In this document: piece by piece, positions 1,955 to 54,895 of the stretch
How positions within the stretch are numbered: position 1 is the stretch's first letter
Layout of the letters: each line of letters opens with the position of its first letter
IMG/VR virus record: IMGVR_UViG_2912391263_000005
Location: 1 to 64,000 of that record
DNA length: 64,000 nucleotides
Source of the DNA: a virus
Reading direction: 5' to 3' (one strand)
The notes under the pieces: model-generated
What the model was told of the DNA's origin: nothing
Seen by the model: only the letters and a program-made list of their open reading frames with translations
The model's database searches: none
Program-made: the position numbers and the translations under genes

Positions 1955-2608
1955 TTATTGAATTCCGTATTTAGAAAATCCTAATTGAACTTCACCGGAA
2001 GTCTTTTGCTGTGTTGTACGCAATGCTTCTTCTTCAGACATTCCATTCTGTACTTTCCATGCAACAGGCGACATCCCGTATTTGTTAACAAAATCAGTAA
2101 GTGATAAAGTGTCAGCGTCTTGCTGAGCGCTTGTTTGTTGGTCTTCTGGATTCTGTTGAGATGCTGCTTGTTGTTCTTTCTGATCTTGACTGATAATATT
2201 GCCAGCATCATCTGTAGTCAATCCATTTTCATAAAGGGCCACGCCGAAAGCTTCCCACTCTTTGTTGGACCAATTTGCACGATCAGCTGGAGTTGACTGT
2301 AAAGTGCGTTGTTTCATCTGTTCATATGTTTCTTCTTGAGGTGCGGTTTGGATTGTACTCTGACTGGAGCTTATAACTGTTGGGCTAGGTTCCGCCGTAG
2401 CTTGGTTGGAGCTTGTAACTGTTGAACTAGAATCTGTTTTAGATGTAGATTTGCTAGTAGATGAACTGGTTTCAGTTGTTTCTTTTGTTTTACTTATTTT
2501 TGTTTCTTGGTTAGAAGTGGTATCTGTTGATTCAGCTTTTTTATTATTTGAACAAGCTGAAAGTAGCAGAGCAGTACTTAACAACAACATAACGCTAACT
2601 TTTTTCAT
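1955..2608 (-). CDS. prophage lipoprotein (Ser/Thr-rich linker, C-terminal globular domain)
   Basis: Signal peptide with a lipobox (LLLSAC). Long S/T-rich low-complexity region. Moron position next to int. Confidence 0.6.
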   Translation of the reverse strand: MKKVSVMLLLSTALLLSACSNNKKAESTDTTSNQETKISKTKETTETSSSTSKSTSKTDSSSTVTSSNQATAEPSPTVISSSQSTIQTAPQEETYEQMKQRTLQSTPADRANWSNKEWEAFGVALYENGLTTDDAGNIISQDQKEQQAASQQNPEDQQTSAQQDADTLSLTDFVNKYGMSPVAWKVQNGMSEEEALRTTQQKTSGEVQLGFSKYGIQ

Positions 2609-2657
2609 TTTATAATTCCTCTTTCTCGTTGTAATATGTGTGCTAACACGGGCTTTT

Positions 2658-3086
2658 TTATATAAGAAAACGATAAGCGCTTTCTGGAAGCCCGTAAAGA
2701 TTCTTTAATTCCTCGATTTTTTTAGGATATTGATCATTATCTTCTTTATAAAGAGAAACAATGAGATTAGCAGCAAAGCAATTAGCTTCGCTTTCAGATT
2801 TGCTTCTAGATGTTCTTGTTGATACATAATAGCTGGATAAGCCACGATGAAAAATAGCGTGACCTAATTCGTGAGCGCAAATGTAGAATCTTTCCTCAGA
2901 GTCTCGCAGTTCATCATTTAAAAAGATTATCGCACGATCTCTAATTTCTTGAAACTGCCCCTTGGGATTCTCGATAAAAGGAACGTATTGAATTTTAATG
3001 CCCATCTTTTCACAAATATAAAAAGGATTAGCGGACTGGTATTTCCGCTTCAACTCCTCGACTAAATTAATCGTATCCATCTCCAT
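2658..3086 (-). CDS. ImmA/IrrE-family metallopeptidase (anti-repressor protease)
   Basis: HEXXH motif in the context YICAHELGHAIFH. Directly downstream of the XRE repressor in the same operon. Confidence 0.8.
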   Translation of the reverse strand: MEMDTINLVEELKRKYQSANPFYICEKMGIKIQYVPFIENPKGQFQEIRDRAIIFLNDELRDSEERFYICAHELGHAIFHRGLSSYYVSTRTSRSKSESEANCFAANLIVSLYKEDNDQYPKKIEELKNLYGLPESAYRFLI

Positions 3087-3090
3087 AAGC

Positions 3091-3465
3091 TCACATCTTT
3101 TTGCCTTTTTCTTTGTCTTCTTTCACAATATCCCAGAAAGTCGCTATCAGGATATCTTTTACGCGCTGTATTTGTTCGGGTGTCAATGTTTCCCCACCAT
3201 AAGACATATTAACATTTGAGTCTAGTAGTTTATCAAGTTCAACCACTTCCTCTTTTGTAGCCCACTTGGGAACATTATTATTTCCCAATAAATAATCAGT
3301 TGTGACACCAAAATAATCAGCAACTTTCTTTAAGTTCTCAGATTTTGGCGAGGCTTTATCCCATCTTCTTATTTGTCCATTAGAGATGCCCACCTGTCTT
3401 TCTACTTCTGCTATAGTCACATGCTTTTCGTCTGCTAATTCTTTAATCTTAGTAACTAAACTCAT
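3091..3465 (-). CDS. XRE-family HTH repressor (cI-like)
   Basis: HTH_XRE pattern (VTIAEVERQVGISNGQIRRWDK). Likely ATG start at 3465 (complement) with an AAAGG RBS; the ORF table extends it to a TTG at 3474. Divergent from cro. Confidence 0.8.
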   Translation of the reverse strand: MSLVTKIKELADEKHVTIAEVERQVGISNGQIRRWDKASPKSENLKKVADYFGVTTDYLLGNNNVPKWATKEEVVELDKLLDSNVNMSYGGETLTPEQIQRVKDILIATFWDIVKEDKEKGKKM

Positions 3466-7195: not shown

Positions 7196-7882
7196 ATGCA
7201 GATTAAGAAGGCGACGGATATCGAACAAACCAAGGGAACATATTTGATCTACGGTGCTCCAGGAAAAGGTAAAACTTCAACGGCTAAATATTTTCCAGGG
7301 AAAACACTGATCCTTGATATTGATCGGACTTCAAAAGTCCTTAGAGGTGAGAAAAATGTCGATATCGTATATATCGACAACGAAGATACCTGGAACGACT
7401 GGGGCAACACGTTGGCTGATTTAACTACCAATTATGTAGGTGTTTATGACAACGTGGTTGTCGATAATGTCAGCGAATTGGAACGGTGTATTCTGTCCAG
7501 TTTAGGCGCAGAAGGAAAAAACAACGGCGTTCCTTCGCAAGGCGATTATCAATATATGCAATTTAGAATGGTGAACAGCCTACGCTATATGAAAAATTTA
7601 GACAGCAACCTTATCTGGACCGCATGGGAAGAAATCGATTTGTGGACGGATTCGGATGGATCTTCTTACAACATCGCTTTGCCGCAGATCAATCGAAAGA
7701 TTCGAAACAATATTTTGGGATTATGTGACGTTGTTGGTCGATTGATGGTAAAGGAAGACGATGAACGCGGATTTATTTTACAAGCCACAGATTCAACCTA
7801 TGCCAAAAATCAATTGGATAATAGATCTGGCTGTAAGCAAAGTGAGCTGATTTTATATGGAATTGTACGACTACCAGAATGA
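7196..7882 (+). CDS. AAA-family ATPase, Sak4-like (RecA-fold recombination protein)
   Basis: Walker A GAPGKGKT. Length and position next to the helicase. Confidence 0.75.
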   Translation: MQIKKATDIEQTKGTYLIYGAPGKGKTSTAKYFPGKTLILDIDRTSKVLRGEKNVDIVYIDNEDTWNDWGNTLADLTTNYVGVYDNVVVDNVSELERCILSSLGAEGKNNGVPSQGDYQYMQFRMVNSLRYMKNLDSNLIWTAWEEIDLWTDSDGSSYNIALPQINRKIRNNILGLCDVVGRLMVKEDDERGFILQATDSTYAKNQLDNRSGCKQSELILYGIVRLPE

Positions 7883-9206
7883 TTTAGTCGATCGTGCAAG
7901 ACAAGCCTATGTTGATGGTTACAAGGCACCATGTATCGTATCACCGTGCGGTTCTGGAAAATCAGTCATGGTTGCAGAGATCGCTAAACGAACCACACGA
8001 AAAGGCAACAGAGTGTTGTTCTTGGTCCATCGTCGTGAATTGATTGATCAGATCAAAGATACGTTTCAAAAGATGGGCGTAGATAATCAGCTTGTAAATT
8101 TCGGCATGGTTCAAACAGTCGTACGACATCTTAAAACCATCAAGAAACCACAACTGATCATCACTGACGAAAACCATCACGGGTTAGCAGCGTCCTACAG
8201 AAAAATCTATGAGTATTATTCGGACGTTCCGCGATTAGGTTTTACCGCGACACCCATCCGGTTAAACGGTAGTGGGTTGGGGGATGTGAACGACTTGCTA
8301 ATTGAAGGAGTATCGGCTAAATGGTTGATTGAGAATCATAGATTAGCTCCTTATGAATATTATGCACCTAAATTGATCGATACAGCCGAATTAAAGAAAG
8401 CTTCGACTGGAGATTTTACAAAGAAATCAATGGATAAGGCAGTGAAGAATACTATTTATGGCGACGTGTTGAAACATTATAAAACGTTAGCAGAAGGTGA
8501 ACAGGCAATAGCATACTGTCACAGTATCGATGCAAGTAAACACACTGCTGAAATATTCAACGATGCTGGTTATAAAGCAACACATATCGATGCAAAAACT
8601 CCAAAAGATGAACGTGCAGATATTATCGAAGCGTTCAGAAATCATGAAATTAAAATCCTATGCAATGTTGATTTGATCGGAGAAGGGTTTGATGTTCCTG
8701 ATTGTTCGACTGTAATTATGTTGAGACCTACTCAATCGTTATCATTGTACATTCAGCAATCGATGAGGGGGATGCGTTACCGACCAGATAAAACGTCAAT
8801 CATCATTGACCATGTGGGTAATGTGAACCGTTTTGGATTGCCTGATATGGATCGTGAATGGAGTTTAGATACAAAAAAGAAAACAAAAACTGATAGTGAT
8901 TTATCTATCGTTCAATGCGCGTTTTGTTTTGGTGCTTACGAACGGCCAAAAGGCGATAATATTTGTCCGTATTGCGGAGAGTTGCAGCCGATTGAAGAAC
9001 GAAAGTCAGAGTTAGAAATCGATGAATCGGCTGAATTAATGAAAGTCGGAGAAACGAAAATTACTTTGAATTTTGAGAACAATAAATATTACAACATGAC
9101 GGAAGATGAAGCAGAAAGTATAGAGGACTTATATGCCATAGCAAGAGCTAAAGGATTTAAACCTGGTTGGGCTTATATGGCTGCTAAGAGGAAGGGGTGG
9201 TTGTAG
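7857..9206 (+). CDS. SF2 DEAD/DEAH-box helicase with C-terminal Zn-ribbon
   Basis: Motif I GSGKS, motif II TDENHH. CxxC...CPYC cluster near the C-terminus. Confidence 0.8.
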   Translation: MELYDYQNDLVDRARQAYVDGYKAPCIVSPCGSGKSVMVAEIAKRTTRKGNRVLFLVHRRELIDQIKDTFQKMGVDNQLVNFGMVQTVVRHLKTIKKPQLIITDENHHGLAASYRKIYEYYSDVPRLGFTATPIRLNGSGLGDVNDLLIEGVSAKWLIENHRLAPYEYYAPKLIDTAELKKASTGDFTKKSMDKAVKNTIYGDVLKHYKTLAEGEQAIAYCHSIDASKHTAEIFNDAGYKATHIDAKTPKDERADIIEAFRNHEIKILCNVDLIGEGFDVPDCSTVIMLRPTQSLSLYIQQSMRGMRYRPDKTSIIIDHVGNVNRFGLPDMDREWSLDTKKKTKTDSDLSIVQCAFCFGAYERPKGDNICPYCGELQPIEERKSELEIDESAELMKVGETKITLNFENNKYYNMTEDEAESIEDLYAIARAKGFKPGWAYMAAKRKGWL

Positions 9207-10186: not shown

Positions 10187-12499
10187 ATGTATGAAAAAAT
10201 TCCAAAAGAGCTTAAAAATCTCAAACAATGGTGTGTTTATAAGCTAGTTTGGGATGAAAAGCGGCAGAAGCACACGAAGATCCCTTATAACGCCAACAAC
10301 GGGCATAAAGCCAAATCCAATGACGAGAGTACCTGGTCTGATTTTCAGACCGCTCTCGCTGCTATTGATCACTACGGAATGAGTGGACTGGGGTTCTTTT
10401 TCAAACCACCTTATTTCGGCATTGATATCGATAATGCTGAAGGTGAAGTTGAGCGATTTAAATCAGGTGATATAGAAGAAAATATTATCTATGAATTTAT
10501 CGAAAGCATGAGATCCTATGCTGAGTATTCTCAATCAGGTACTGGCATCCACATTATTGCTCGCGGAGAATTGCCCGGCGGAAGACGCAGGAAAGGTGAC
10601 GTAGAAATGTACCAGAACGGCCGATTCTTCGTTATGACTGGAAATGCCGCATCAAAATATTTAGAAATAACTGAGCCGAATCCAAAGGATATCAAACGCC
10701 TATATGATCGCTACGTTGGAGATGAAAAAATCATCCAATTCAAAGAAGAAAATCCGCTGATGAATACCGTTGATTTACCGGTTGAAGAAATTATCAAACG
10801 TGCTGAATCGTCTTCCCAAGGGGCAAGATTCAAAGTCTTTATGAACGGCGGTTGGGAAGCTTTTTATTCCTCGCAATCCGAAGCGGATATGGCGTTCGCC
10901 AACGACTTGGCTTTTTGGACCGGTAGAGACTTTGAAAAAATGGATGAGATTTTCAGAGCGTCTGCAATGATCCGTAGCAAATATGACCAAAAAAGGGGAT
11001 CGGCAACTTACGGAGAATCTCTACTAAATAAGGCAATTGCTGATACAAATTCCGTCTACAACCCCAAACGGAAATCTGATTTTAAGATTTTTATCAAAGA
11101 CCAGGAACAGCCAAAAGAGGAAAAATACTATTCGTACGACGACACCGGCAACGCGGATCGGTTTACTGATATCTACGGAACGTTAGTCAAATATTCGTAC
11201 ATTGATAAATCTTGGTATTACTACGATGGGAAAGTTTGGCTACAGGACAATACCGGCGAAGTTCGGAAAATGATCGATACGACAGTAGACATCATGGGAA
11301 AAGAACCGTTAACGATCCCTGAAGGCGCAGACGATGAAACCAAAGAAGCTTTGATGAAAGCGAAAGAAAAACACGTCAAGCGTTCTCGCAGCAATGCCGG
11401 AAAAAACGCTATGATGGACGAATTGAAACATCGACTATCCGTATTGCCGGAAGAGTTCGACAAAGATAAAACGCTGTTCAACACACAAAGCGGCTATCTG
11501 TCTTTGCATGACGGTCTTCTACACGAGCATGAGATAGACAAAATGTTTACACGTGTTTCAAATGTCGAGTACACAGAATCGGTCGATTGTCCTATGTGGG
11601 AAGAATTTATTAATCAGATTTTTGACAATGATCAAGAATTAATCAGATATATCCAGAAATGTGTCGGATATTCCCTGACCGGATCTACCGGAGAGCAATG
11701 TATGTTCATCCTCTACGGTCATGGGTCAAATGGAAAGTCGGTATTTTTGGAAATTATTTCTGAATTGATGGGAAACTATGCGATGACTATGCAGGCACAA
11801 ACGATCATGGTCAAGCAAAGCCAATCATCAGCAAACAGTGATATTGCACGATTGAAAGGTGCGCGGTTGGTCACTTCGTCAGAACCGAATGAAGGCGTCC
11901 GACTGGACGAAGGTCTGGTCAAACAATTGACTGGTGGTGATAAAGTCACGGCTCGGCACCTTTATGGAAAAGAATTCGAGTTCGAACCTGAATTCAAGTT
12001 GTGGCTGGCAACGAACCACAAGCCCATCATCCGTGGGACCGATGACGGCATCTGGCGACGGTTAAATTTAATTCCATTCACTGTCCAAATCCCGGATCAC
12101 AAAAAGGATAAAAATCTGAAATTTAAATTGCAGACGGAGTTGCAAGGGATCCTTAAATGGGCAATCGATGGTTGCCTGTTGTGGCAGAGAGAGGGCTTGG
12201 AGAAACCAAAGTCGGTTGTTGCAGCGAGTCAGGATTATCGAAACGAAATGGATCAAATAGGTACATTTATCGAAACGTGTTGCGAAACAGGTCCAGGACT
12301 AAAAATATCAGGCGGAGAATTATACAAAGTTTATCGTGAATGGGCATCAGATAATGGCGAGCATACTTTCACTAACACGAAGTTTGGCAGAGAGATTTCA
12401 AAGAAATATAGCAAAGAAAAAGCTGGTGGATTTATGGTTTATAAAGGAATCACATTAAAACCAAGAAAATACGATAACGTTAGAGAACTTTTTAAATAA
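10187..12499 (+). CDS. bifunctional primase-polymerase / P4-type (D5-like) replicative helicase
   Basis: 770 aa. Walker A GHGSNGKS in the C-terminal half. N-terminal prim-pol-like region. Confidence 0.85.
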   Translation: MYEKIPKELKNLKQWCVYKLVWDEKRQKHTKIPYNANNGHKAKSNDESTWSDFQTALAAIDHYGMSGLGFFFKPPYFGIDIDNAEGEVERFKSGDIEENIIYEFIESMRSYAEYSQSGTGIHIIARGELPGGRRRKGDVEMYQNGRFFVMTGNAASKYLEITEPNPKDIKRLYDRYVGDEKIIQFKEENPLMNTVDLPVEEIIKRAESSSQGARFKVFMNGGWEAFYSSQSEADMAFANDLAFWTGRDFEKMDEIFRASAMIRSKYDQKRGSATYGESLLNKAIADTNSVYNPKRKSDFKIFIKDQEQPKEEKYYSYDDTGNADRFTDIYGTLVKYSYIDKSWYYYDGKVWLQDNTGEVRKMIDTTVDIMGKEPLTIPEGADDETKEALMKAKEKHVKRSRSNAGKNAMMDELKHRLSVLPEEFDKDKTLFNTQSGYLSLHDGLLHEHEIDKMFTRVSNVEYTESVDCPMWEEFINQIFDNDQELIRYIQKCVGYSLTGSTGEQCMFILYGHGSNGKSVFLEIISELMGNYAMTMQAQTIMVKQSQSSANSDIARLKGARLVTSSEPNEGVRLDEGLVKQLTGGDKVTARHLYGKEFEFEPEFKLWLATNHKPIIRGTDDGIWRRLNLIPFTVQIPDHKKDKNLKFKLQTELQGILKWAIDGCLLWQREGLEKPKSVVAASQDYRNEMDQIGTFIETCCETGPGLKISGGELYKVYREWASDNGEHTFTNTKFGREISKKYSKEKAGGFMVYKGITLKPRKYDNVRELFK

Positions 12500-15693: not shown

Positions 15694-15781
15694 CTCGGCA
15701 AATAAAAAAAGCCGGATCGCTCCGACTGATTCAATAAATCCAACACATTTATTATATCACATAAAGGAGCGGTTTGACTTG

Positions 15782-16195
15782 ATGCAATTGTTACGAGAGG
15801 TAGATTTCAAACAGACAAGATGTAATGCGAGAGATGTGCTGAAGAACTTTCGGCGTTTGGAGCGGATGGCAGGTCGCTCTTTGATAGATATTAAGTCGCC
15901 GATTATTACGGATATGCCGAAGGCACCGAAGCACGGCAATAAGGCAGAAGACGCGATCATTCAAATGATGGATATAGAAGCGGAGAGAGACGCGATTCTA
16001 GCGGCTTTGATGGCTCTTAGTCTGATTAGTCGTCAGATACTCTACTACAGCTTCTGTGTGCCAGATAGCTTCTCAAACTACAGGATTAGCCGTGAAGTGG
16101 GTTATTCAGAAAGAAGCATACAAAGGATGAAGTCGGAAGCTCTAATAGAGTTTGCAGAAGCGTATAAACACGGAAGAATAATTGCTTATAAATAG
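15782..16195 (+). CDS. arpU: ArpU-family late transcriptional regulator (sigma-like)
   Basis: About 137 aa. C-terminal sigma region-4-like HTH (ERSIQRMKSEALIEFAEAY). Positioned before the packaging module. Confidence 0.7.
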   Translation: MQLLREVDFKQTRCNARDVLKNFRRLERMAGRSLIDIKSPIITDMPKAPKHGNKAEDAIIQMMDIEAERDAILAALMALSLISRQILYYSFCVPDSFSNYRISREVGYSERSIQRMKSEALIEFAEAYKHGRIIAYK

Positions 16196-16906: not shown

Positions 16907-17059
16907 ATGAAATTATCAGTAGAAGGCACTCCAGAAGAAATACAAGAATTGCTCCAAGCTATTGGTAGTAGCAAGGAGCAAAAGGTAAGTGTTTCTAATT
17001 CAGATATTGACGGTATTTGCAATTGTTTAAACAGAGAAAAAATATCTAATCCTTACTAA
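16907..17059 (+). CDS. small hypothetical protein (50 aa)
   Basis: RBS TTGGAGGGAAG before ATG 16907. The upstream part of the table ORF 16847..17059 is probably leader. Confidence 0.3.
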   Translation: MKLSVEGTPEEIQELLQAIGSSKEQKVSVSNSDIDGICNCLNREKISNPY

Positions 17060-17343
17060 GAGAAAATATGTTCGTTAATGAATTTCCAATTTTCCTCTGT
17101 AGCTCTACCTTGATAATTTTTTTGCAGTTCACAGATGAATAAGGAATCGTTATTATCAAGTACTGTATTTAATTTTTCACACATTTGATTTGGATTCAAA
17201 TTAGTTTTAACTAACCAAAAAGATTTTTGTAGCTTTATATATGCCCCAAATTCTTTTATTATTTCAAATACTTTATCATACTTTTGCCCTGGGTTATTAA
17301 GATCATAACTAATCATGTAGGGTTTATACATGTTGTCTTGCAC
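17056..17343 (-). CDS. hypothetical protein with Cas2/VapD-like sequence pattern; reverse-oriented moron
   Basis: 95 aa. Pattern YDLnn...KVFEIIKEFGAYIKLQKSFWLVKT...DSLFICEL resembles the ferredoxin-like Cas2/VapD fold. Motif-level call only. Confidence 0.35.
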   Translation of the reverse strand: MQDNMYKPYMISYDLNNPGQKYDKVFEIIKEFGAYIKLQKSFWLVKTNLNPNQMCEKLNTVLDNNDSLFICELQKNYQGRATEENWKFINEHIFS

Positions 17344-17479
17344 ATCCTTGTTTTATATTTCAGCGGACCACTCGCTGATAACTAAAATTATACACTTAGG
17401 TCATTGGAAAAAGCTGATAGTGAATTTGCAGAAAAATACAATTTAACCAAATAATTAAAAAAAAGGTGGGTGAAGAGAA

Positions 17480-17563
17480 ATGATGGCGTTAATAATTTCA
17501 ATTTTTGCGCTCTGTCTTAATGTCTATATGATTGGATTTAAAAATGGGCAAAATAAAAAATAG
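17480..17563 (+). CDS. 27-aa hydrophobic peptide with Lys-rich tail (type I toxin-like)
   Basis: MMALIISIFALCLNVYMIGFKNGQNKK. RBS GGTGGGTGA. Immediately upstream of the structured ORF-free region. Confidence 0.25.
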   Translation: MMALIISIFALCLNVYMIGFKNGQNKK

Positions 17564-17584
17564 TAGCAGCCAAGAATAATTTTA

Positions 17585-18032
17585 TAGTGTCACTGTGGCG
17601 GAAAGGTAGACGCTAAGCATGCGTGCTAGGTCAATGCTTCGGCAACCATGCAATGTTCGATTCATTGCCAGTGACTTAAGGAACCTACGGAAACAATTCA
17701 TCTTATCGGATGCCGATGAATTGGCTGACTAGTCGGGATGCCACTAGCAGTTAAAAGGCATAAAATACTAGCGCAGACGTGCGCCACTCTCAGGTGTAGG
17801 TTAGGAGAGAAACATTAATTGGGGTTATTAGGAATACGATAACCTGCTTGCGACAAAGCTTTGTACTGTCGCGTTGGTCATGGACAGAGACGGTATTCTG
17901 TTTCAGTATTCGTTAGCAACCGAAGAATCGGCGGTTTAAAAATATAGGGGTGCGCAATTTCGTACGCGTTTTGTGCATCGTGTAGGTTGCTATTACATAT
18001 TAGATCACTCATCGAGTGGTCTTTTTATTTTG
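17585..18032 (+). ncRNA. candidate large structured prophage ncRNA (GOLLD/ROOL-like?) with tRNA-like 5-prime module
   Basis: No ORF of 60 aa or more in 17344-18048. GC-rich core dense in hairpins. T-arm-like caatg-TTCGATT-cattg at 17651-17667 with an acceptor-like pairing of 17589-95 with 17669-75. Hairpin plus T-run terminator at 18006-18030. Confidence 0.35.
18004..18030 (+). terminator. intrinsic terminator ending the ORF-free region
   Basis: Stem cactc/gagtg (18006-18020) followed by CTTTTTATTTT. Confidence 0.5.
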
Positions 18033-18048
18033 AAAGGGGAGTAAACAA

Positions 18049-18261
18049 ATGAACGAAAATCAATTAAGAGAGTTGTTTAAAACGAATGAAGCAAACAAAA
18101 CAATGGAGGCGACATTCTACGAAACTCAAAAAAGCTTAGCGTTAATCGCAAAACAATCAAAGTATTTCTACGATCAGCTTATTCTGCAAGGATTTAATGA
18201 AGGACAGGCTATGGAATTTATGATGCGAACCTTTTCTGCCAGTAACCAACAGAAAGAGTGA
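18049..18261 (+). CDS. hypothetical phage protein
   Basis: RBS GGGGAG. 70 aa. Confidence 0.45.
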   Translation: MNENQLRELFKTNEANKTMEATFYETQKSLALIAKQSKYFYDQLILQGFNEGQAMEFMMRTFSASNQQKE

Positions 18262-38043: not shown

Positions 38044-38264
38044 ATAATAAAACGTTCGAAGTACTAAAATGGTTCGCACTGGTAATTATTCCCGCACTAG
38101 CTACTTTCGTGGGGTTAGTTGGTAAAGCGCTCAATTGGCAGTACACAGATATCTGTGTTGTCATCATTACTGGTTTTGGCGCGTTTTTAGGGAGTGTGTT
38201 GGGTGTATCAAATCGAACCTACAAAATGTTCTCGGCTGAAAGCGAAGAAGGAGGAAACAAATGA
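38040..38264 (+). CDS. holin
   Basis: 74 aa, two TM helices, charged C-terminus. Immediately before the endolysin. Confidence 0.65.
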   Translation: MNNKTFEVLKWFALVIIPALATFVGLVGKALNWQYTDICVVIITGFGAFLGSVLGVSNRTYKMFSAESEEGGNK

Positions 38265-53023: not shown

Positions 53024-54895
53024 GTGCGCCAGGCATGGCAACTAACTAGGTGGTGAAAGTCCACTGCGAGGGGACACATCGACCAATCGCTAGAGAAACG
53101 CAAGGTGGCATCCGTGAGGATGTAGCTGAAGGAAGCGTGTATCAAACTCTTGGCTCGACGAACAGAAATCTGATACTAAGGCTCGAATAAGTGGATGAGG
53201 TTCCTATACAAACCAAAGTCCAAAAGATGTGCGTAAACTTATCGGGTAAATCAGGCGAGTAAAAGACGAAAGTTAGTTGTCTTACCCTGGGAGATCTCAC
53301 GGACGATTAAGGAGTCCCCTAATAAGAAAATCGGTCGAAAAAGGTTTATCGTGAGAAGTCAGCCGATGTCATAGTAGTGGAAATTTTCTTCCATGAAGGA
53401 CTGAACAATTTATAGTGTTTCTACACCATGAATGCACGAAAGATATATTTCTGAATGTGTTAATGATGAAAGTATGAGCGTATCTCAAAGGATAGTCAAA
53501 AGTGAAGTGTCTTTCGTTACATGAAAGGAAAAGGGAGAAGCGAGTATGGAACTTTTAGAAAAAATTTTGAGTAATCAAAACATGAACCAAGCTTACAAAC
53601 GTGTTTATCGTAATAAAGGAGCAAGCGGTGTGGATGGAATTTCAGTTGAGGAATTAAAGGCGTATCTTAGGGAACATAAAGAAGAACTTCGTTCTCAAAT
53701 CCGCCAACGTAAATACAATCCACAACCAACGTTACGAGTTGAAATTCCAAAAGGAAATGGCAAAACACGTCAATTAGGTATCCCCACAGTAGTGGATAGG
53801 GTCATCCAACAGGCGATTAGCCAAATCCTCACGACCGTTTTTGAAAAGCAATTTAGTACGTATAGTTATGGTTTTCGACCGAATCGTAGTTGTGAAATGG
53901 CGATTATCCAAACCCTAGACTTTATGAATAATGGCTATGATTGGCTAGTGGATATTGACTTAGAGCGGTTCTTTGATACTGTTCACCATGACAAGCTTAT
54001 GCGAATTGTCTCACACACGATAGAAGACGGGGATGTGATTTCTCTCATCCGCAAGTATCTAGTAAGTGGCGTCATGAAAAGTGGAAAATATGAAGACACA
54101 CCTATCGGTACCCCGCAAGGCGGTAATTTAAGTCCGCTATTGAGCAACATTATGCTAAATGAACTTGATAAAGAACTAGAATCAAGAGGACTACATTTTG
54201 TCCGCTATGCAGATGATAGTATCATTTTTGTCAAAAGCGAGAAGGCAGCACAGCGAGTGCTACAGTCTGTAACGACTTTTATCGAAAAGAAGTTAGGGCT
54301 GATCGTCAATGCAGAGAAAAGTAAAATAGGTCGTCCAAATAGCACAAAATTTTTAGGTTTCGGTTTTTACTTTGATAGTCATACAAAGAAATATCAGCCA
54401 ACGCCTCATAAGGACTTCGTTCAGAAATTTCAGCGCAAATTACGCCAATGGACTAAGAGGAACAGAAGTATTTCTCTTGATGAACGAATCATGAAACTTA
54501 AACAAGTCATTTATGGTTGGGTAAACTACTTTCGCAAAGCAAAAATGAAAGGAAAACTCAGAGAAATAGACGCAAAACTTCGGTCAAGAATCCGAGTCAT
54601 TATCTGGAAACAGTGGAAGAACGATAGAAAGAGAATTCGTTCCTTGGTTCAGTTAGGGATACCAGAAGAAGAAGCCAAAGGCTTAACGTATTGCAGAAAG
54701 AGCTATCGATTTATTGGATTATCAAAGGTAGTTCACAGAGCTCTATCAAATAAGCGACTAAAGCAAAGAGGCATTCCTTTTTCCGTAGATTATTATTTAA
54801 AAGTGCATACTGCAATATAAATTGAACCGCCGTATGCTGAACGGCTTGTGCGGTGGTGTGAGAGGGGTGCGAACCTATGCGTTCGGGCCTCTACT
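53024..54895 (+). mobile_element. group II intron, class C-like (3-prime boundary approximate)
   Basis: 5-prime GTGCGCC. RT/maturase ORF in domain IV. Domain-V-like hairpin AACCGCCGTATGC...GTGCGGTGG (CGC triad) at about 54825-54857. DVI-like hairpin follows. Inserted right after a terminator. Confidence 0.65.
53546..54820 (+). CDS. group II intron reverse transcriptase/maturase (no endonuclease domain)
   Basis: RT blocks (...GIPTVVDRVIQQA..., FRPNRSCEMA, YADD motif RYADDSIIF) and X/maturase domain. 424 aa, no C-terminal HNH. Confidence 0.85.
   Translation: MELLEKILSNQNMNQAYKRVYRNKGASGVDGISVEELKAYLREHKEELRSQIRQRKYNPQPTLRVEIPKGNGKTRQLGIPTVVDRVIQQAISQILTTVFEKQFSTYSYGFRPNRSCEMAIIQTLDFMNNGYDWLVDIDLERFFDTVHHDKLMRIVSHTIEDGDVISLIRKYLVSGVMKSGKYEDTPIGTPQGGNLSPLLSNIMLNELDKELESRGLHFVRYADDSIIFVKSEKAAQRVLQSVTTFIEKKLGLIVNAEKSKIGRPNSTKFLGFGFYFDSHTKKYQPTPHKDFVQKFQRKLRQWTKRNRSISLDERIMKLKQVIYGWVNYFRKAKMKGKLREIDAKLRSRIRVIIWKQWKNDRKRIRSLVQLGIPEEEAKGLTYCRKSYRFIGLSKVVHRALSNKRLKQRGIPFSVDYYLKVHTAI

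What the first reader, a model, noticed from the sequence alone, without database searches (positions are those of the whole stretch)
17344..18048. ORF-free, terminator-ended ~700-bp structured region in the prophage: candidate large ornate ncRNA with a tRNA-like module
This 705-bp stretch sits inside a gene-dense prophage but has no ORF of 60 aa or more in any frame.

The core at 17585-17960 is markedly more GC-rich than its flanks. It is packed with local inverted repeats, for example ctagtcgggatgccactag and gcgcagacgtgcgc.

A tRNA-like module lies at its 5-prime side. A T-arm caatg-TTCGATT-cattg sits at 17651-17667. An acceptor-like pairing joins 17589-17595 (gtcactg) with 17669-17675 (cagtgac). 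The anticodon arm is not canonical, so this is not a plain tRNA.

The region ends in a hairpin plus T-run terminator at 18006-18030, just before the next ORFs. It is therefore a discrete rightward transcript.

Established knowledge: the GOLLD and ROOL RNAs are 500-800 nt ornate RNAs found in Lactobacillales and Clostridia prophages. They are frequently next to or embedded with tRNAs.

A 27-aa hydrophobic, Lys-tailed peptide ORF (17480-17563) lies at its 5-prime end.
Basis: partly seen in the sequence, partly recalled or inferred. Interest (0 to 1): 0.75.

Follow-up and report, generated by a model that had tools for sequence, protein, structure and literature searches.

The report
tRNA-headed modular phage noncoding RNA
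The ORF-free stretch is a real ~440-nt structured RNA gene with a tRNA-like head, from a family absent from Rfam 15 that is shared by temperate and virulent Enterococcus phages; it is neither GOLLD nor ROOL, though in some virulent phages it lies directly behind a ROOL RNA.

Summary
Window 17344-18048 has no ORF above 44 aa. It has a GC-rich core (0.46 against 0.28-0.30 in the flanks), the two named hairpins, a tRNA-like module at the stated coordinates and a terminator at 18002-18031.

It is a discrete structured ncRNA (about 17589-18031, + strand). Rfam 15 gives no GOLLD, ROOL or tRNA match even at E<=10.

About 75 homologues exist, all from Enterococcus: prophages, three species genomes, metagenomes and six Schiekvirus myophages. 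They define a mosaic family of 420-965 nt:
- a tRNA-like head with a canonical acceptor, D-arm and T-arm, and a hypervariable arm in place of the anticodon arm;
- in some members a second slot holding a genuine tRNA (Lys-UUU or Ile-UAU);
- a nearly invariant 144-nt core that starts right after the discriminator base;
- swappable hairpin modules and a terminator.

Stems show compensatory and wobble changes (99.6% of cells paired, against 27-39% in slid controls).

In Schiekviruses it is a 501-nt accessory cassette inserted just 3' of ROOL. A divergent "mini-core" lies between two tRNAs.

Most likely mechanism, inferred: RNase P and RNase Z processing at the tRNA(-like) modules releases a stable pseudoknotted RNA. 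Its ultimate role is unknown.

The parts
17414..17442 (+). Promoter-like site CTGATA-17-TACAAT. It is a weak candidate start of the unit holding the micro-ORF and the RNA.
   Evidence: Consensus scan only, 9 of 12 matches. The number of such sites in the region is no higher than in shuffles. Other 5'-flank types have their own promoter-like site about 20 nt before the tRNA-like head (L003). Inferred, not shown.
17480..17563 (+). 27-aa hydrophobic, Lys-tailed micro-ORF (MMALIISIFALCLNVYMIGFKNGQNKK). Optional upstream neighbour of the RNA.
   Evidence: An RBS (AAGGTGGGTGA) precedes it. It recurs in 8 loci as MMALII, MIPLII or MTALII variants with two synonymous changes. No Pfam, NCBIfam or PHROG match. 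It is absent from most family members.
17589..17676 (+). tRNA-like head. Acceptor 17589-95 pairs with 17669-75. D-arm 17598-17613. A non-canonical arm (17615-17639: 6-bp stem, 13-nt loop) replaces the anticodon arm. T-arm 17650-68 with loop TTCGATT. Discriminator U at 17676. No encoded CCA.
   Evidence: Read from the sequence. Not called by ARAGORN or Rfam. In 33 distinct homologous heads (80-226 nt) the acceptor varies by wobble-compatible changes. The T stem covaries: GCAATG/CATTGC, GCAAGG/CCTTGC, GAGTGG/CCACTC. In relatives with a second slot, the position just before the core holds a genuine tRNA.
17677..17817 (+). Conserved core.
- 5' UAAGGAACCUACGG.
- Pa: 17694-702 with 17715-23, loop UUAUCGGAUGCC.
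- Pb: 17725-50.
- J: GGCAU at 17757-61.
- Pc: 17771-84, loop GACG.
- Pd: 17787-91 with 17805-09, 13-nt loop containing GUAGGUU (17796-802).
- Candidate pseudoknot 1: AACCUAC (17682-88) with the Pd loop.
- Candidate pseudoknot 2: AUGCC (17710-14) with GGCAU.
   Evidence: Covariance model R1 hits 17674-17817 with 184.9 bits, E 6.6e-41; it is the only credible hit in the window (the next is 8.4 bits, E 2.5). Pair counts: 34 pairs, 99.6% of cells paired against 27-39% in slid controls, 4 pairs changed on both sides, and 0 of 500 shuffles reach the covariation score. Neither pseudoknot has a compensatory double change: the AUGCC/GGCAU pairing has two wobble-compatible single changes, and the AACCUAC/GUAGGUU pairing is essentially invariant. 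A divergent mini-core has AACCGC with GUGGUU at the corresponding places.
17818..17915 (+). Optional three-hairpin module B. B1: 17822-29 with 17838-45. B2: 17850-55 with 17867-72. B3: 17882-88 with 17897-903. Loop sequences are conserved: UAGGAAYAC, RGCUUUGUA, CGGUAUU.
   Evidence: RNAalifold on 8 variants gives 19 pairs, 8 of them changed on both sides. The module is absent in Schiekvirus and L004-type members and replaced by other hairpin modules elsewhere.
17916..17990 (+). Closing helix GCAACC (17916-21) with GGUUGC (17985-90), enclosing variable module C. It contains a second copy of GUGUAGGUU (17980-88).
   Evidence: The flanking motifs GCAACYGAGG and GUGUAGGUUGC are conserved around at least four unrelated inserts. 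A C-to-U variant keeps a wobble pair. The direct repeat was found. An alternative long-range pairing of 17679-88 with 17982-91 is also possible and is unresolved.
17991..18031 (+). Linker UAUUACAUAUU followed by an intrinsic terminator (stem 18002-22, T-run 18023-31).
   Evidence: Terminator scan. Nearly every member ends in a terminator: most in this sequence, the L041-type in a different hairpin. A longer variant carries a further ~100-nt module D between two ATTACATA repeats. The same terminator also ends a protein-coding moron in phage vB_ElaS_B1578, so it is a shared cassette end rather than a part unique to the RNA.

Best explanation
Window ~17589-18031 (+) is a gene for a ~440-nt structured noncoding RNA. 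It belongs to a modular RNA family, absent from Rfam 15, that is confined as far as detectable to Enterococcus phages.

Shown:
- The architecture is a tRNA-like head, a nearly invariant 144-nt core, swappable hairpin modules and a terminator.
- The head keeps the acceptor stem, D-arm and T-arm (the tRNA 'top half' and elbow), while the anticodon arm is replaced by a hypervariable insert.
- In relatives, the slot immediately 5' of the core holds a genuine tRNA (Lys-UUU or Ile-UAU).
- The core always starts right after a discriminator base, with U at +1 and no encoded CCA.
- In Schiekvirus myophages the unit is a 501-nt accessory cassette placed 13 nt behind ROOL, with no detectable promoter in between.

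Inferred mechanism:
- The primary transcript is cut by the host tRNA-maturation enzymes. RNase P cuts at the 5' end of each tRNA(-like) module. RNase Z cuts just after the discriminator.
- This separates the RNA from whatever precedes it (leader, micro-ORF mRNA, ROOL or a cargo tRNA).
- It releases two products: a tRNA-sized head and a ~350-nt RNA. The 5' end of that RNA may be tucked into a pseudoknot (AACCUAC with the Pd loop), and its 3' end is the terminator hairpin. Both features favour stability.
- The released RNA then acts in trans during phage growth, in the same way (still unknown) as the tRNA-associated phage RNAs ROOL and GOLLD: as a scaffold or decoy tied to tRNA or translation, or to counter-defence.
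For: Non-coding status:
- No ORF above 44 aa.
- Homologues differ by 1-3-nt indels and whole-module swaps.

Family:
- About 45 IMG/VR loci, 3 GTDB Enterococcus species, about 25 metagenome contigs and 6 Schiekviruses.
- R1 scores 155-185 bits for full-length hits. The noise loci give nothing better than E about 0.9.

Structure:
- Core pair counts and controls.
- Module B has 8 compensatory pairs.
- The T stem and acceptor covary.
- The mini-core shows compensatory changes in its Pb- and Pc-like helices.

Strand:
- More than 20 G-U/U-G variant cells would be A-C mismatches on the other strand.
- The orientation matches the embedded tRNAs and the terminator.

Processing logic:
- A genuine tRNA abuts the core at the same register as the tRNA-like head. 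Compare ...CACGTTA-A-TAAAGAACC with ...CAGTGAC-T-TAAGGAACC.
- U stands at -1 of every head.
- U follows every discriminator, and there is no CCA.
- RNase Z of Lactobacillales cleaves CCA-less precursors immediately after the discriminator (PMC8549757).
- In Schiekvirus a promoter-like site precedes ROOL and none lies between ROOL and the head.
- The mini-core lies exactly between two tRNAs.

Accessory and mobile nature:
- A 46-nt direct repeat flanks the cassette.
- About 24 Schiekviruses have the exact empty site (L196).
- The core is identical between L004-type prophages and Schiekviruses.
Against: - There are no expression or end-mapping data.
- Sequence diversity is low: the effective sequence number of R1 is 1.15. 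Covariation rests on a few lineages and most core pairs never vary.
- The promoter assignments are weak consensus matches.
- Two recombinant members (L195, L197) lack Pa-Pc yet persist in different flanks. A few copies carry mismatches (L015, L031, L013). The full core is therefore not strictly indispensable, or some copies are decaying.
- The Schiekvirus-type head has a non-canonical T-loop (GGCAGUA), so its recognition by RNase P and RNase Z is less certain.
- The folding z-score is similar on both strands.
- The biological role is not addressed by any result here.
Confidence: 0.7

Rival explanations
1. It is a divergent member of the GOLLD or ROOL family.
For: It shares their niche: phage-borne, next to or embedding tRNAs, large and modular with variable and conserved parts. 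GOLLD has a variable 5' region, tRNAs in its linker and a conserved 3' domain (PMC12286853; PMC12990946). This family has a variable head, a tRNA slot and a conserved core. It is adjacent to ROOL in Schiekviruses.
Against: No GOLLD or ROOL hit at gathering score or at E<=10, in the window, in L156 or in 11 other loci. The same scan finds ROOL at 263-266 bits right next to the homologue, and that match ends (model positions 1-574 of 574) before the tRNA-like head. The family sizes of 420-965 nt overlap those of GOLLD and ROOL, but there are no shared motifs.
Confidence: 0.06
2. It is a cis-acting leader or attenuator. The structured RNA and its terminator would control read-through into the downstream late genes (small genes, HNH, terminase), by analogy with lambda 6S/tR' or put-type antitermination RNAs.
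For: It sits between the ArpU-type late activator (28 loci) and the HNH/terminase module, and it ends in a strong terminator directly before the next ORF.
Against: The downstream gene differs between loci; at least six unrelated first genes are seen. In Schiekviruses the same unit lies inside a tRNA cluster and is followed by tRNAs. The same terminator closes a protein-coding moron in the same slot. No alternative antiterminator pairing was found. A tRNA-like head and cargo tRNAs have no role in such a leader.
Confidence: 0.08
3. It is the long structured 3' UTR of the 27-aa micro-ORF mRNA, for example a type I toxin-like peptide whose mRNA is stabilised or silenced by the structure.
For: The micro-ORF, with an RBS, lies 25 nt upstream on the same strand. 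It is conserved in 8 loci with synonymous changes. The peptide is hydrophobic with a basic tail, like Fst-type toxins (my own knowledge).
Against: Only about 8 of about 50 loci have the ORF. In the others the flank changes right up to the first base of the head. The Schiekvirus and L004-type members have no such ORF. No toxin family match was found.
Confidence: 0.05
4. It is a decaying remnant of a phage tRNA gene cluster (pseudo-tRNAs plus spacers) with no function of its own, spread by recombination.
For: The heads look like degenerate tRNAs; L020 has a near-cloverleaf of 80 nt. Module shuffling and some mismatched copies occur.
Against: The core loops and junctions are nearly invariant across unrelated phage backbones while the stems change by compensation. 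The core is identical in temperate siphophage-like prophages and Herelleviridae myophages. Pseudogenes would not keep 99.6% pairing.
Confidence: 0.05
5. It is a DNA-level element (pac/cos site, origin, att or recombination site).
For: It is located about 2 kb upstream of the terminase genes. Repeated motifs (GTGTAGGTT x2, ATTACATA x2) and a 46-nt duplication at the Schiekvirus insertion suggest recombination activity.
Against: The strand-asymmetric wobble pattern, the embedded functional tRNAs, the terminator, and its position in a tRNA cluster in myophages far from packaging genes.
Confidence: 0.03

Closest known systems
GOLLD RNA (Rfam family; Weinberg et al. 2009; cryo-EM in PMC12286853)
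   Same: It is phage or prophage borne and lies near tRNA arrays. It is large and modular. It has a variable 5' part, a tRNA sometimes embedded just before a conserved 3' domain, and unknown function.
   Different: No covariance-model similarity at E<=10. The conserved part here is only about 144 nt plus modules. The family is restricted to Enterococcus phages. Oligomerisation is untested.
ROOL RNA (RF03087)
   Same: It occupies the same phages and the same tRNA-cluster neighbourhood. In six Schiekviruses the two are adjacent, co-oriented and probably co-transcribed.
   Different: The ROOL model match is complete (positions 1-574) and ends before the tRNA-like head. The window and the temperate phages have no ROOL at all.
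Stable RNAs of the phage T4 tRNA cluster (species 1 and 2, also called bands C and D); own knowledge, not tested here
   Same: They are small structured RNAs of unknown function, encoded between phage tRNA genes and released by tRNA-processing enzymes. This is the best analogue of the Schiekvirus mini-core lying between two tRNAs.
   Different: They have unrelated sequences and hosts and are much smaller than the window RNA. No homology was tested.
tRNA-like processing signals (MALAT1-mascRNA; tRNA-linked small RNAs of gammaherpesvirus MHV68); own knowledge
   Same: A tRNA-like fold is embedded in a longer transcript and recruits RNase P and RNase Z to define the ends of the neighbouring RNA.
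   Different: These are eukaryotic or viral systems. There the tRNA-like element sits 3' of the functional RNA (MALAT1) or 5' of miRNA hairpins. This is an analogy of mechanism only.
tRNA mimics with the anticodon arm replaced (bacterial Y RNA YrlA; the tmRNA tRNA-like domain); own knowledge
   Same: The acceptor, T-arm and D-arm elbow are retained, while the anticodon arm is replaced by another domain.
   Different: There is no Y RNA or tmRNA hit by Rfam or ARAGORN. No Ro-binding helix, tag reading frame or G3-U70 is present.

Membership tests
GOLLD RNA | Match to the Rfam GOLLD covariance model (conserved 3' domain) | tested here: not met
   No hit at gathering score or at E<=10 with relaxed filters for window 17200-18200, for L156 600-1900 or for 11 relatives.
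GOLLD RNA | Phage or prophage location, proximity to tRNAs, tRNA sometimes embedded before the conserved 3' domain | tested here: met
   Prophage context. Genuine tRNA-Lys or tRNA-Ile lies immediately 5' of the core in L004, L044 and L046. tRNA-cluster context in Schiekviruses. This feature is shared with ROOL and is not sufficient for membership.
GOLLD RNA | Homo-oligomeric nanocage assembly | not testable with these tools
   Needs cryo-EM or native gels.
ROOL RNA (RF03087) | Match to the ROOL covariance model | tested here: not met
   No hit in the window. In L001, L002 and L024 ROOL is found at 263-266 bits over L002 2297-2883 and ends 13 nt before the homologous head.
tRNA | Cloverleaf with a 7-nt anticodon loop, called by ARAGORN or Rfam RF00005 | tested here: not met
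   Neither tool calls 17589-17676. The arm in place of the anticodon arm has a 6-bp stem and a 13-nt loop. One extra base lies between the T stem and the acceptor stem.
tRNA | Acceptor stem, D-arm and T-arm with the tertiary-contact nucleotides (U8, A14, G18G19, A21, U54U55C56, A58) | tested here: met
   Read directly from the sequence 17589-17676. Stem covariation is seen in 33 heads.
tmRNA / Y RNA (YrlA) | Detection by ARAGORN (tmRNA) or the Rfam models | tested here: not met
   ARAGORN finds no tmRNA. Rfam gives no hit at E<=10.
New family defined here (model R1) | 144-nt core with Pa-Pd directly 3' of a tRNA or tRNA-like discriminator base | tested here: met
   Window 17674-17817 scores 184.9 bits, E 6.6e-41. 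The head ends at 17676. The window sequence was among the training sequences, so the score is by construction. Independence comes from the L041-clade and Schiekvirus rows, which score 158-171 bits.
cis-regulatory leader or riboswitch | A constant class of downstream gene, and alternative terminator/antiterminator pairing | tested here: not met
   The downstream genes are unrelated across loci. tRNAs follow in Schiekviruses. No antiterminator was seen.

The most novel reading that the evidence does not exclude
This is a third, independent class of phage 'ornate' RNA alongside ROOL and GOLLD. It would be a mobile, Lego-like RNA cassette. Its tRNA-shaped head and tRNA cargo slot are functional, not just processing signals. 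For example, after RNase Z cleavage and CCA addition the head could act as a decoy or sponge for host tRNA-targeting defences or tRNA enzymes. Alternatively, the core and its modules could assemble into a multimeric scaffold that stores or delivers phage tRNAs such as Lys-UUU. That would make the long-unknown function of tRNA-linked phage RNAs testable in a genetically tractable host with small (~440 nt) natural variants and natural presence/absence phage pairs.
Probability: 0.2. Interest if true: 0.85.

Novelty: new variant of a known kind. Interest (0 to 1): 0.66.

Why it matters
The functions of ROOL and GOLLD are still unknown despite recent cryo-EM structures. This family adds a smaller relative-by-niche that may help in several ways.
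- It has natural modular variants from 420 to 965 nt.
- It has a tRNA-like head and, in some members, a slot holding a real tRNA.
- About 6 Schiekviruses carry it as a clean 501-nt insertion next to ROOL, and about 24 otherwise near-identical phages lack it. These pairs are ready-made isogenic comparisons for phenotype, such as host range, burst size and resistance to tRNA-targeting defences.
- It shows that the same RNA cassette moves between temperate and virulent enterococcal phages, which argues for a selectable benefit.
- Enterococcus phages are therapy candidates, and this region is left unannotated or mis-annotated as a 'hypothetical protein' in their genomes.

Tried and rejected
- **Rfam.** Whole window at gathering score, region at E<=10, L156 at E<=10, and 13 loci at gathering score. 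Only tRNA, ROOL and group II intron hits appeared, and none on the element.
- **ARAGORN** on the window and on 42 upstream regions. Only the slot-2 tRNAs are called, never the heads.
- **Exact or degenerate pattern scans aimed at distant relatives.** Several patterns returned only noise:
  - CTTATCGGATGCCG gave 119 mostly random loci.
  - L157-159, L161, L166/167/174/183/184 and L198-206 are coding-sequence false positives.
  - No member outside Enterococcus was found. These scans need near-exact motifs, so more distant relatives cannot be excluded.
- **Constant protein partner.** Clustering of ORFs within +/-3.5 kb shows only phage synteny (ArpU upstream, HNH/terminase downstream). The Cas2-like 95-aa gene is next to the RNA in only 4 loci.
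- **Protein coding inside the region.** Rejected because of short non-conserved ORFs and frame-breaking indels.
- **Literature.** No paper links Enterococcus phages with a tRNA-like RNA or Schiekvirus with ROOL. The E. faecalis/E. faecium RNA-map paper has no relevant mention.
- **Motif search in the published GOLLD alignment.** Uninformative, because the file is gapped and cut when stored.
- **Helix assignment.** I could not decide between two pairings. In one, the 5' AACCUAC pairs with the Pd loop and GCAACC pairs with GGUUGC. In the other, AACCUAC pairs with the 3' GUAGGUU as a long-range closing helix. All the bases involved are invariant.
Full report
**1. Observation**

The stretch 17344-18048 has no ORF longer than 44 aa in any frame. 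GC content is 0.457 over 17585-17960. It is 0.295 for 17344-17584, 0.281 for the upstream gene and 0.373 for the whole window.

- the hairpins ctagt/actag and gcgca-gacg-tgcgc;
- a 7-bp acceptor-like pairing (17589-95 with 17669-75);
- a T-arm with loop TTCGATT (17650-68);
- a 9-bp hairpin plus T-run at 18002-31.

A D-arm (17598-17613) is also present, carrying U8, A14, G18G19 and A21. The module therefore keeps the whole tRNA elbow. The arm standing in for the anticodon arm has a 6-bp stem and a 13-nt loop.

ARAGORN and Rfam's tRNA model do not call the module. Folding energy is better than shuffles (z = -3.2), but so is the opposite strand (z = -3.0). Energy alone therefore proves nothing.

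**2. Not GOLLD, not ROOL**

cmscan against all 4227 Rfam 15 families finds nothing on the element. This holds at gathering score and at E<=10 with relaxed filters. It also holds for an 870-nt relative and for 11 further loci.

**3. Homologues**

BLASTN against isolated phages matched only 150 nt (window 17668-17817) at about 85% identity. The matches were 150-kb Schiekvirus myophages, inside their tRNA cluster.

There, Rfam finds a complete ROOL RNA (L002 2297-2883, 265.8 bits). Thirteen nucleotides later the sequence starts with the same GTCACTGTGGCGGA as the window. It continues through a tRNA-like module and the matching core, and ends in the same terminator.

Motif scans then recovered the following, all from Enterococcus:
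- about 45 IMG/VR loci;
- three GTDB species genomes: E. malodoratus, Ca. E. wittei and E. hermanniensis;
- about 25 metagenome contigs;
- E. faecium phage-plasmid-like records.

**4. Anatomy of the family**

Alignment anchored on the core shows a mosaic RNA of 420-965 nt.

a. *tRNA-like head (80-226 nt).* The 5' strand (GUCACUGUGGCGGAA) is almost invariant. The T stem covaries: GCAAUG/CAUUGC, GCAAGG/CCUUGC, GAGUGG/CCACUC. The acceptor variants are mostly wobble-compatible. A hypervariable insert replaces the anticodon arm. The flank upstream changes completely right up to the first G, so this is the 5' boundary of the element.

b. *Optional second slot.* Some members add a ~140-nt module and a second slot. 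That slot holds a genuine tRNA: Lys-UUU at 61-69 bits in Rfam, Ile-UAU, or an odd 'SeC-UCA' call. In other members it holds another tRNA-like module.

c. *Core.* The core starts immediately after the discriminator, with UAA(A/G)GAACCUACGG in the same register whether a real tRNA or a tRNA-like head precedes it. No CCA is encoded. U follows every discriminator, and U precedes every head.

d. *Core helices.* Pa, Pb, Pc and Pd, with invariant loops.

e. *Insertion point after Pd.* It holds from 8 to 170 nt of different hairpin modules. The window has the three-hairpin module B.

f. *Closing helix.* GCAACC pairs with GGUUGC around interchangeable inserts (module C).

g. *3' end.* An optional ~100-nt module D lies between two ATTACATA repeats, followed by the terminator.

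**5. Structure evidence**

On 22 distinct cores, a 34-pair model (including the two candidate pseudoknots) gives these results:
- 99.6% of cells are paired, against 27-39% when the partners are slid by 1-3 columns;
- 4 pairs change on both sides;
- 0 of 500 shuffles reach the observed covariation score.

More than 20 variant cells are G-U or U-G. These would be A-C mismatches on the other strand. With the orientation of the tRNAs and the terminator, this fixes the + strand.

Module B has 19 predicted pairs, 8 of them with compensatory double changes.

The caveat is low diversity. The effective sequence number of model R1 is 1.15, most core pairs never vary, and the pseudoknots rest on wobble-compatible single changes only.

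R1 hits the window once (17674-17817, 184.9 bits). It scores 155-185 bits for full-length copies in about 65 further loci, and truncated copies score lower. Unrelated 'noise' loci give nothing better than E about 0.9.

**6. A divergent paralogue**

R1 also finds a weak hit in Schiekviruses. It scores 26.6 bits, with E = 0.002 in 821 kb and 8e-7 locally (L002 3479-3608). It lies exactly between a tRNA and tRNA-Asp.

This 126-nt 'mini-core' keeps Pa-, Pb-, Pc- and Pd-like helices and the AAACAUU tail. It is present in all 28 matching Schiekvirus records and is unannotated in most of them. It shows its own compensatory changes:
- CGUA/UACG to CGCA/UGCG;
- UUAUUG/CAAUAA to UCCUUG/CAAGGA.

At the places corresponding to the main core's AACCUAC and GUAGGUU it has AACCGC and GUGGUU. 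This is consistent with the 5'-end/Pd-loop pseudoknot.

So the theme 'a structured core directly behind a tRNA' has at least two sub-families.

**7. Mobility**

In phage 21C1 a 46-nt direct repeat, which is the 3' end of ROOL, flanks the head, core and terminator with a spacing of 501 nt.

BLAST of ROOL, the cassette and the following tRNAs gave three groups (L196):
- about 6 distinct Schiekviruses have the cassette;
- about 24 have the precise empty site (a span of about 902 nt instead of 1404 nt);
- EF24C-like phages have only ROOL.

The cassette's core is identical to that of L004-type prophages. The unit is therefore an accessory cassette exchanged between temperate and virulent phages.

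Two contigs (L195, L197) carry recombinants that lack Pa-Pc. The junction lies at the repeated GUGUAGGUU motif.

**8. Context in the window**

The RNA lies in the variable slot between the ArpU-type late activator (15779-16195, phrog_248) and the HNH/terminase module (18793 onward).

ArpU is the commonest upstream neighbour (28 loci). No protein gene is constantly adjacent. In phage vB_ElaS_B1578 the same slot, with the same terminator, holds a 313-aa protein gene. The RNA therefore behaves like a moron cassette.

Promoter assignments are weak:
- CTGATA-17-TACAAT at 17414-42 in the window;
- TTAACT-16-TATTAT about 20 nt before the head in the L003-type flank;
- in Schiekvirus, a good promoter before ROOL and none between ROOL and the head. 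This implies co-transcription and a need for processing.

**9. Mechanism**

*Shown:* the anatomy described above.

*Established knowledge:* RNase P recognises the acceptor/T-arm half of tRNA. RNase Z of Firmicutes cuts CCA-less precursors immediately after the discriminator (PMC8549757).

*Inferred:* the tRNA(-like) modules are processing handles. They free the head, or a cargo tRNA, together with a ~350-nt RNA bounded by a 5' pseudoknot and a 3' terminator hairpin.

The downstream function is unknown. By niche I place it with ROOL and GOLLD, as a tRNA-associated phage RNA acting in trans as a scaffold or decoy. I give low confidence to any specific role.

Rivals considered were a GOLLD/ROOL member, a cis leader, a 3' UTR of the micro-ORF, a tRNA-cluster remnant and a DNA element. 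Each is contradicted by specific results listed under the rival explanations.

**10. Novelty and verdict**

I found no description of this RNA in Rfam 15 or in the searchable literature.

It is a new RNA family of a known kind: large, modular, tRNA-linked phage ncRNAs. It has an unusual and explicit tRNA-shaped head, a tRNA slot, and clear cassette mobility. Interest is moderately high.

Noticed in passing
L002 3482-3607 (also L034, L196, L207-L209): A 126-nt structured 'mini-core' lies between a tRNA (annotated Met, Ile or pseudo-CAT) and tRNA-Asp. It is present in all 28 matching Schiekvirus records and unannotated in most. It is a divergent paralogue of the window's core and has its own compensatory changes.
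   Followed up: partly
L002 2850-2895 and 3351-3396: A 46-nt direct repeat (the 3' end of ROOL) flanks the 501-nt head, core and terminator cassette. About 24 other Schiekviruses show the exact empty site. This is a clean natural insertion polymorphism.
   Followed up: yes
window 17480-17563: A 27-aa hydrophobic, Lys-tailed micro-ORF with a strong RBS. It is conserved in 8 loci with two synonymous changes, always directly 5' of the RNA, and has no family match. It may be a small membrane peptide or a type I toxin-like peptide.
   Followed up: partly
window 17056-17343 (- strand): A 95-aa ORF (phrog_1090) gives a sub-threshold match to Cas2 (TIGR01573, E 8e-5, 22.8 bits against a cutoff of 24.5). 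It is a stand-alone Cas2/VapD-like protein diverging from the RNA, and it neighbours the RNA in only 4 loci.
   Followed up: partly
window 17361-17377: The hairpin CAGCGGACCACTCGCTG lies in the divergent promoter region. It recurs upstream of the RNA in L017, L155 and L197, and resembles the reverse complement of the terminator stem at 18009-21.
   Followed up: no
L004, L008, L010, L023, L025, L044 (Lys-UUU); L046 (Ile-UAU); L055 ('SeC-UCA'): The tRNA slot just before the core holds different genuine tRNAs in different phages. The UCA-anticodon call in L055 could be an opal-suppressor-like or a degenerate tRNA.
   Followed up: partly
L195 about 11920-12232 and L197 about 7605-8060 (element-strand, reverse-complement coordinates as printed): These recombinant family members lack Pa-Pc. 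The head is joined directly to a GCAACUGAGG...GUGUAGGUUGC unit and then to the Pd loop half. The junction lies at the repeated GUGUAGGUU motif.
   Followed up: partly
L160 (PQ283533.1) 2183-3173; CP064341.1: The RNA's terminator (GATCACTC..GAGTGGTCTTTTTATTTTG) also ends a 313-aa protein-coding moron in the same slot of phage vB_ElaS_B1578. It also occurs on a Lactococcus lactis plasmid, so it is a shared cassette end.
   Followed up: partly
PQ554527.1 (hits H8, H20): The record named 'Acinetobacter phage D2SVT' (40,170 bp) matches this Enterococcus prophage region just as Enterococcus phage vB_ElaS_B1578 does (same query span, 92.6% and 92.7% identity). The record is probably mislabelled or contaminated.
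   Followed up: no
window 53108-53401: Group II intron domains (RF02001 at 132.8 bits; RF01998 at 49.4 bits) lie elsewhere in the window.
   Followed up: no
window 39476-39549: tRNA-Met (CAU) lies just beyond the large ORF at 38261-39286. It may mark the prophage end or attachment site.
   Followed up: no
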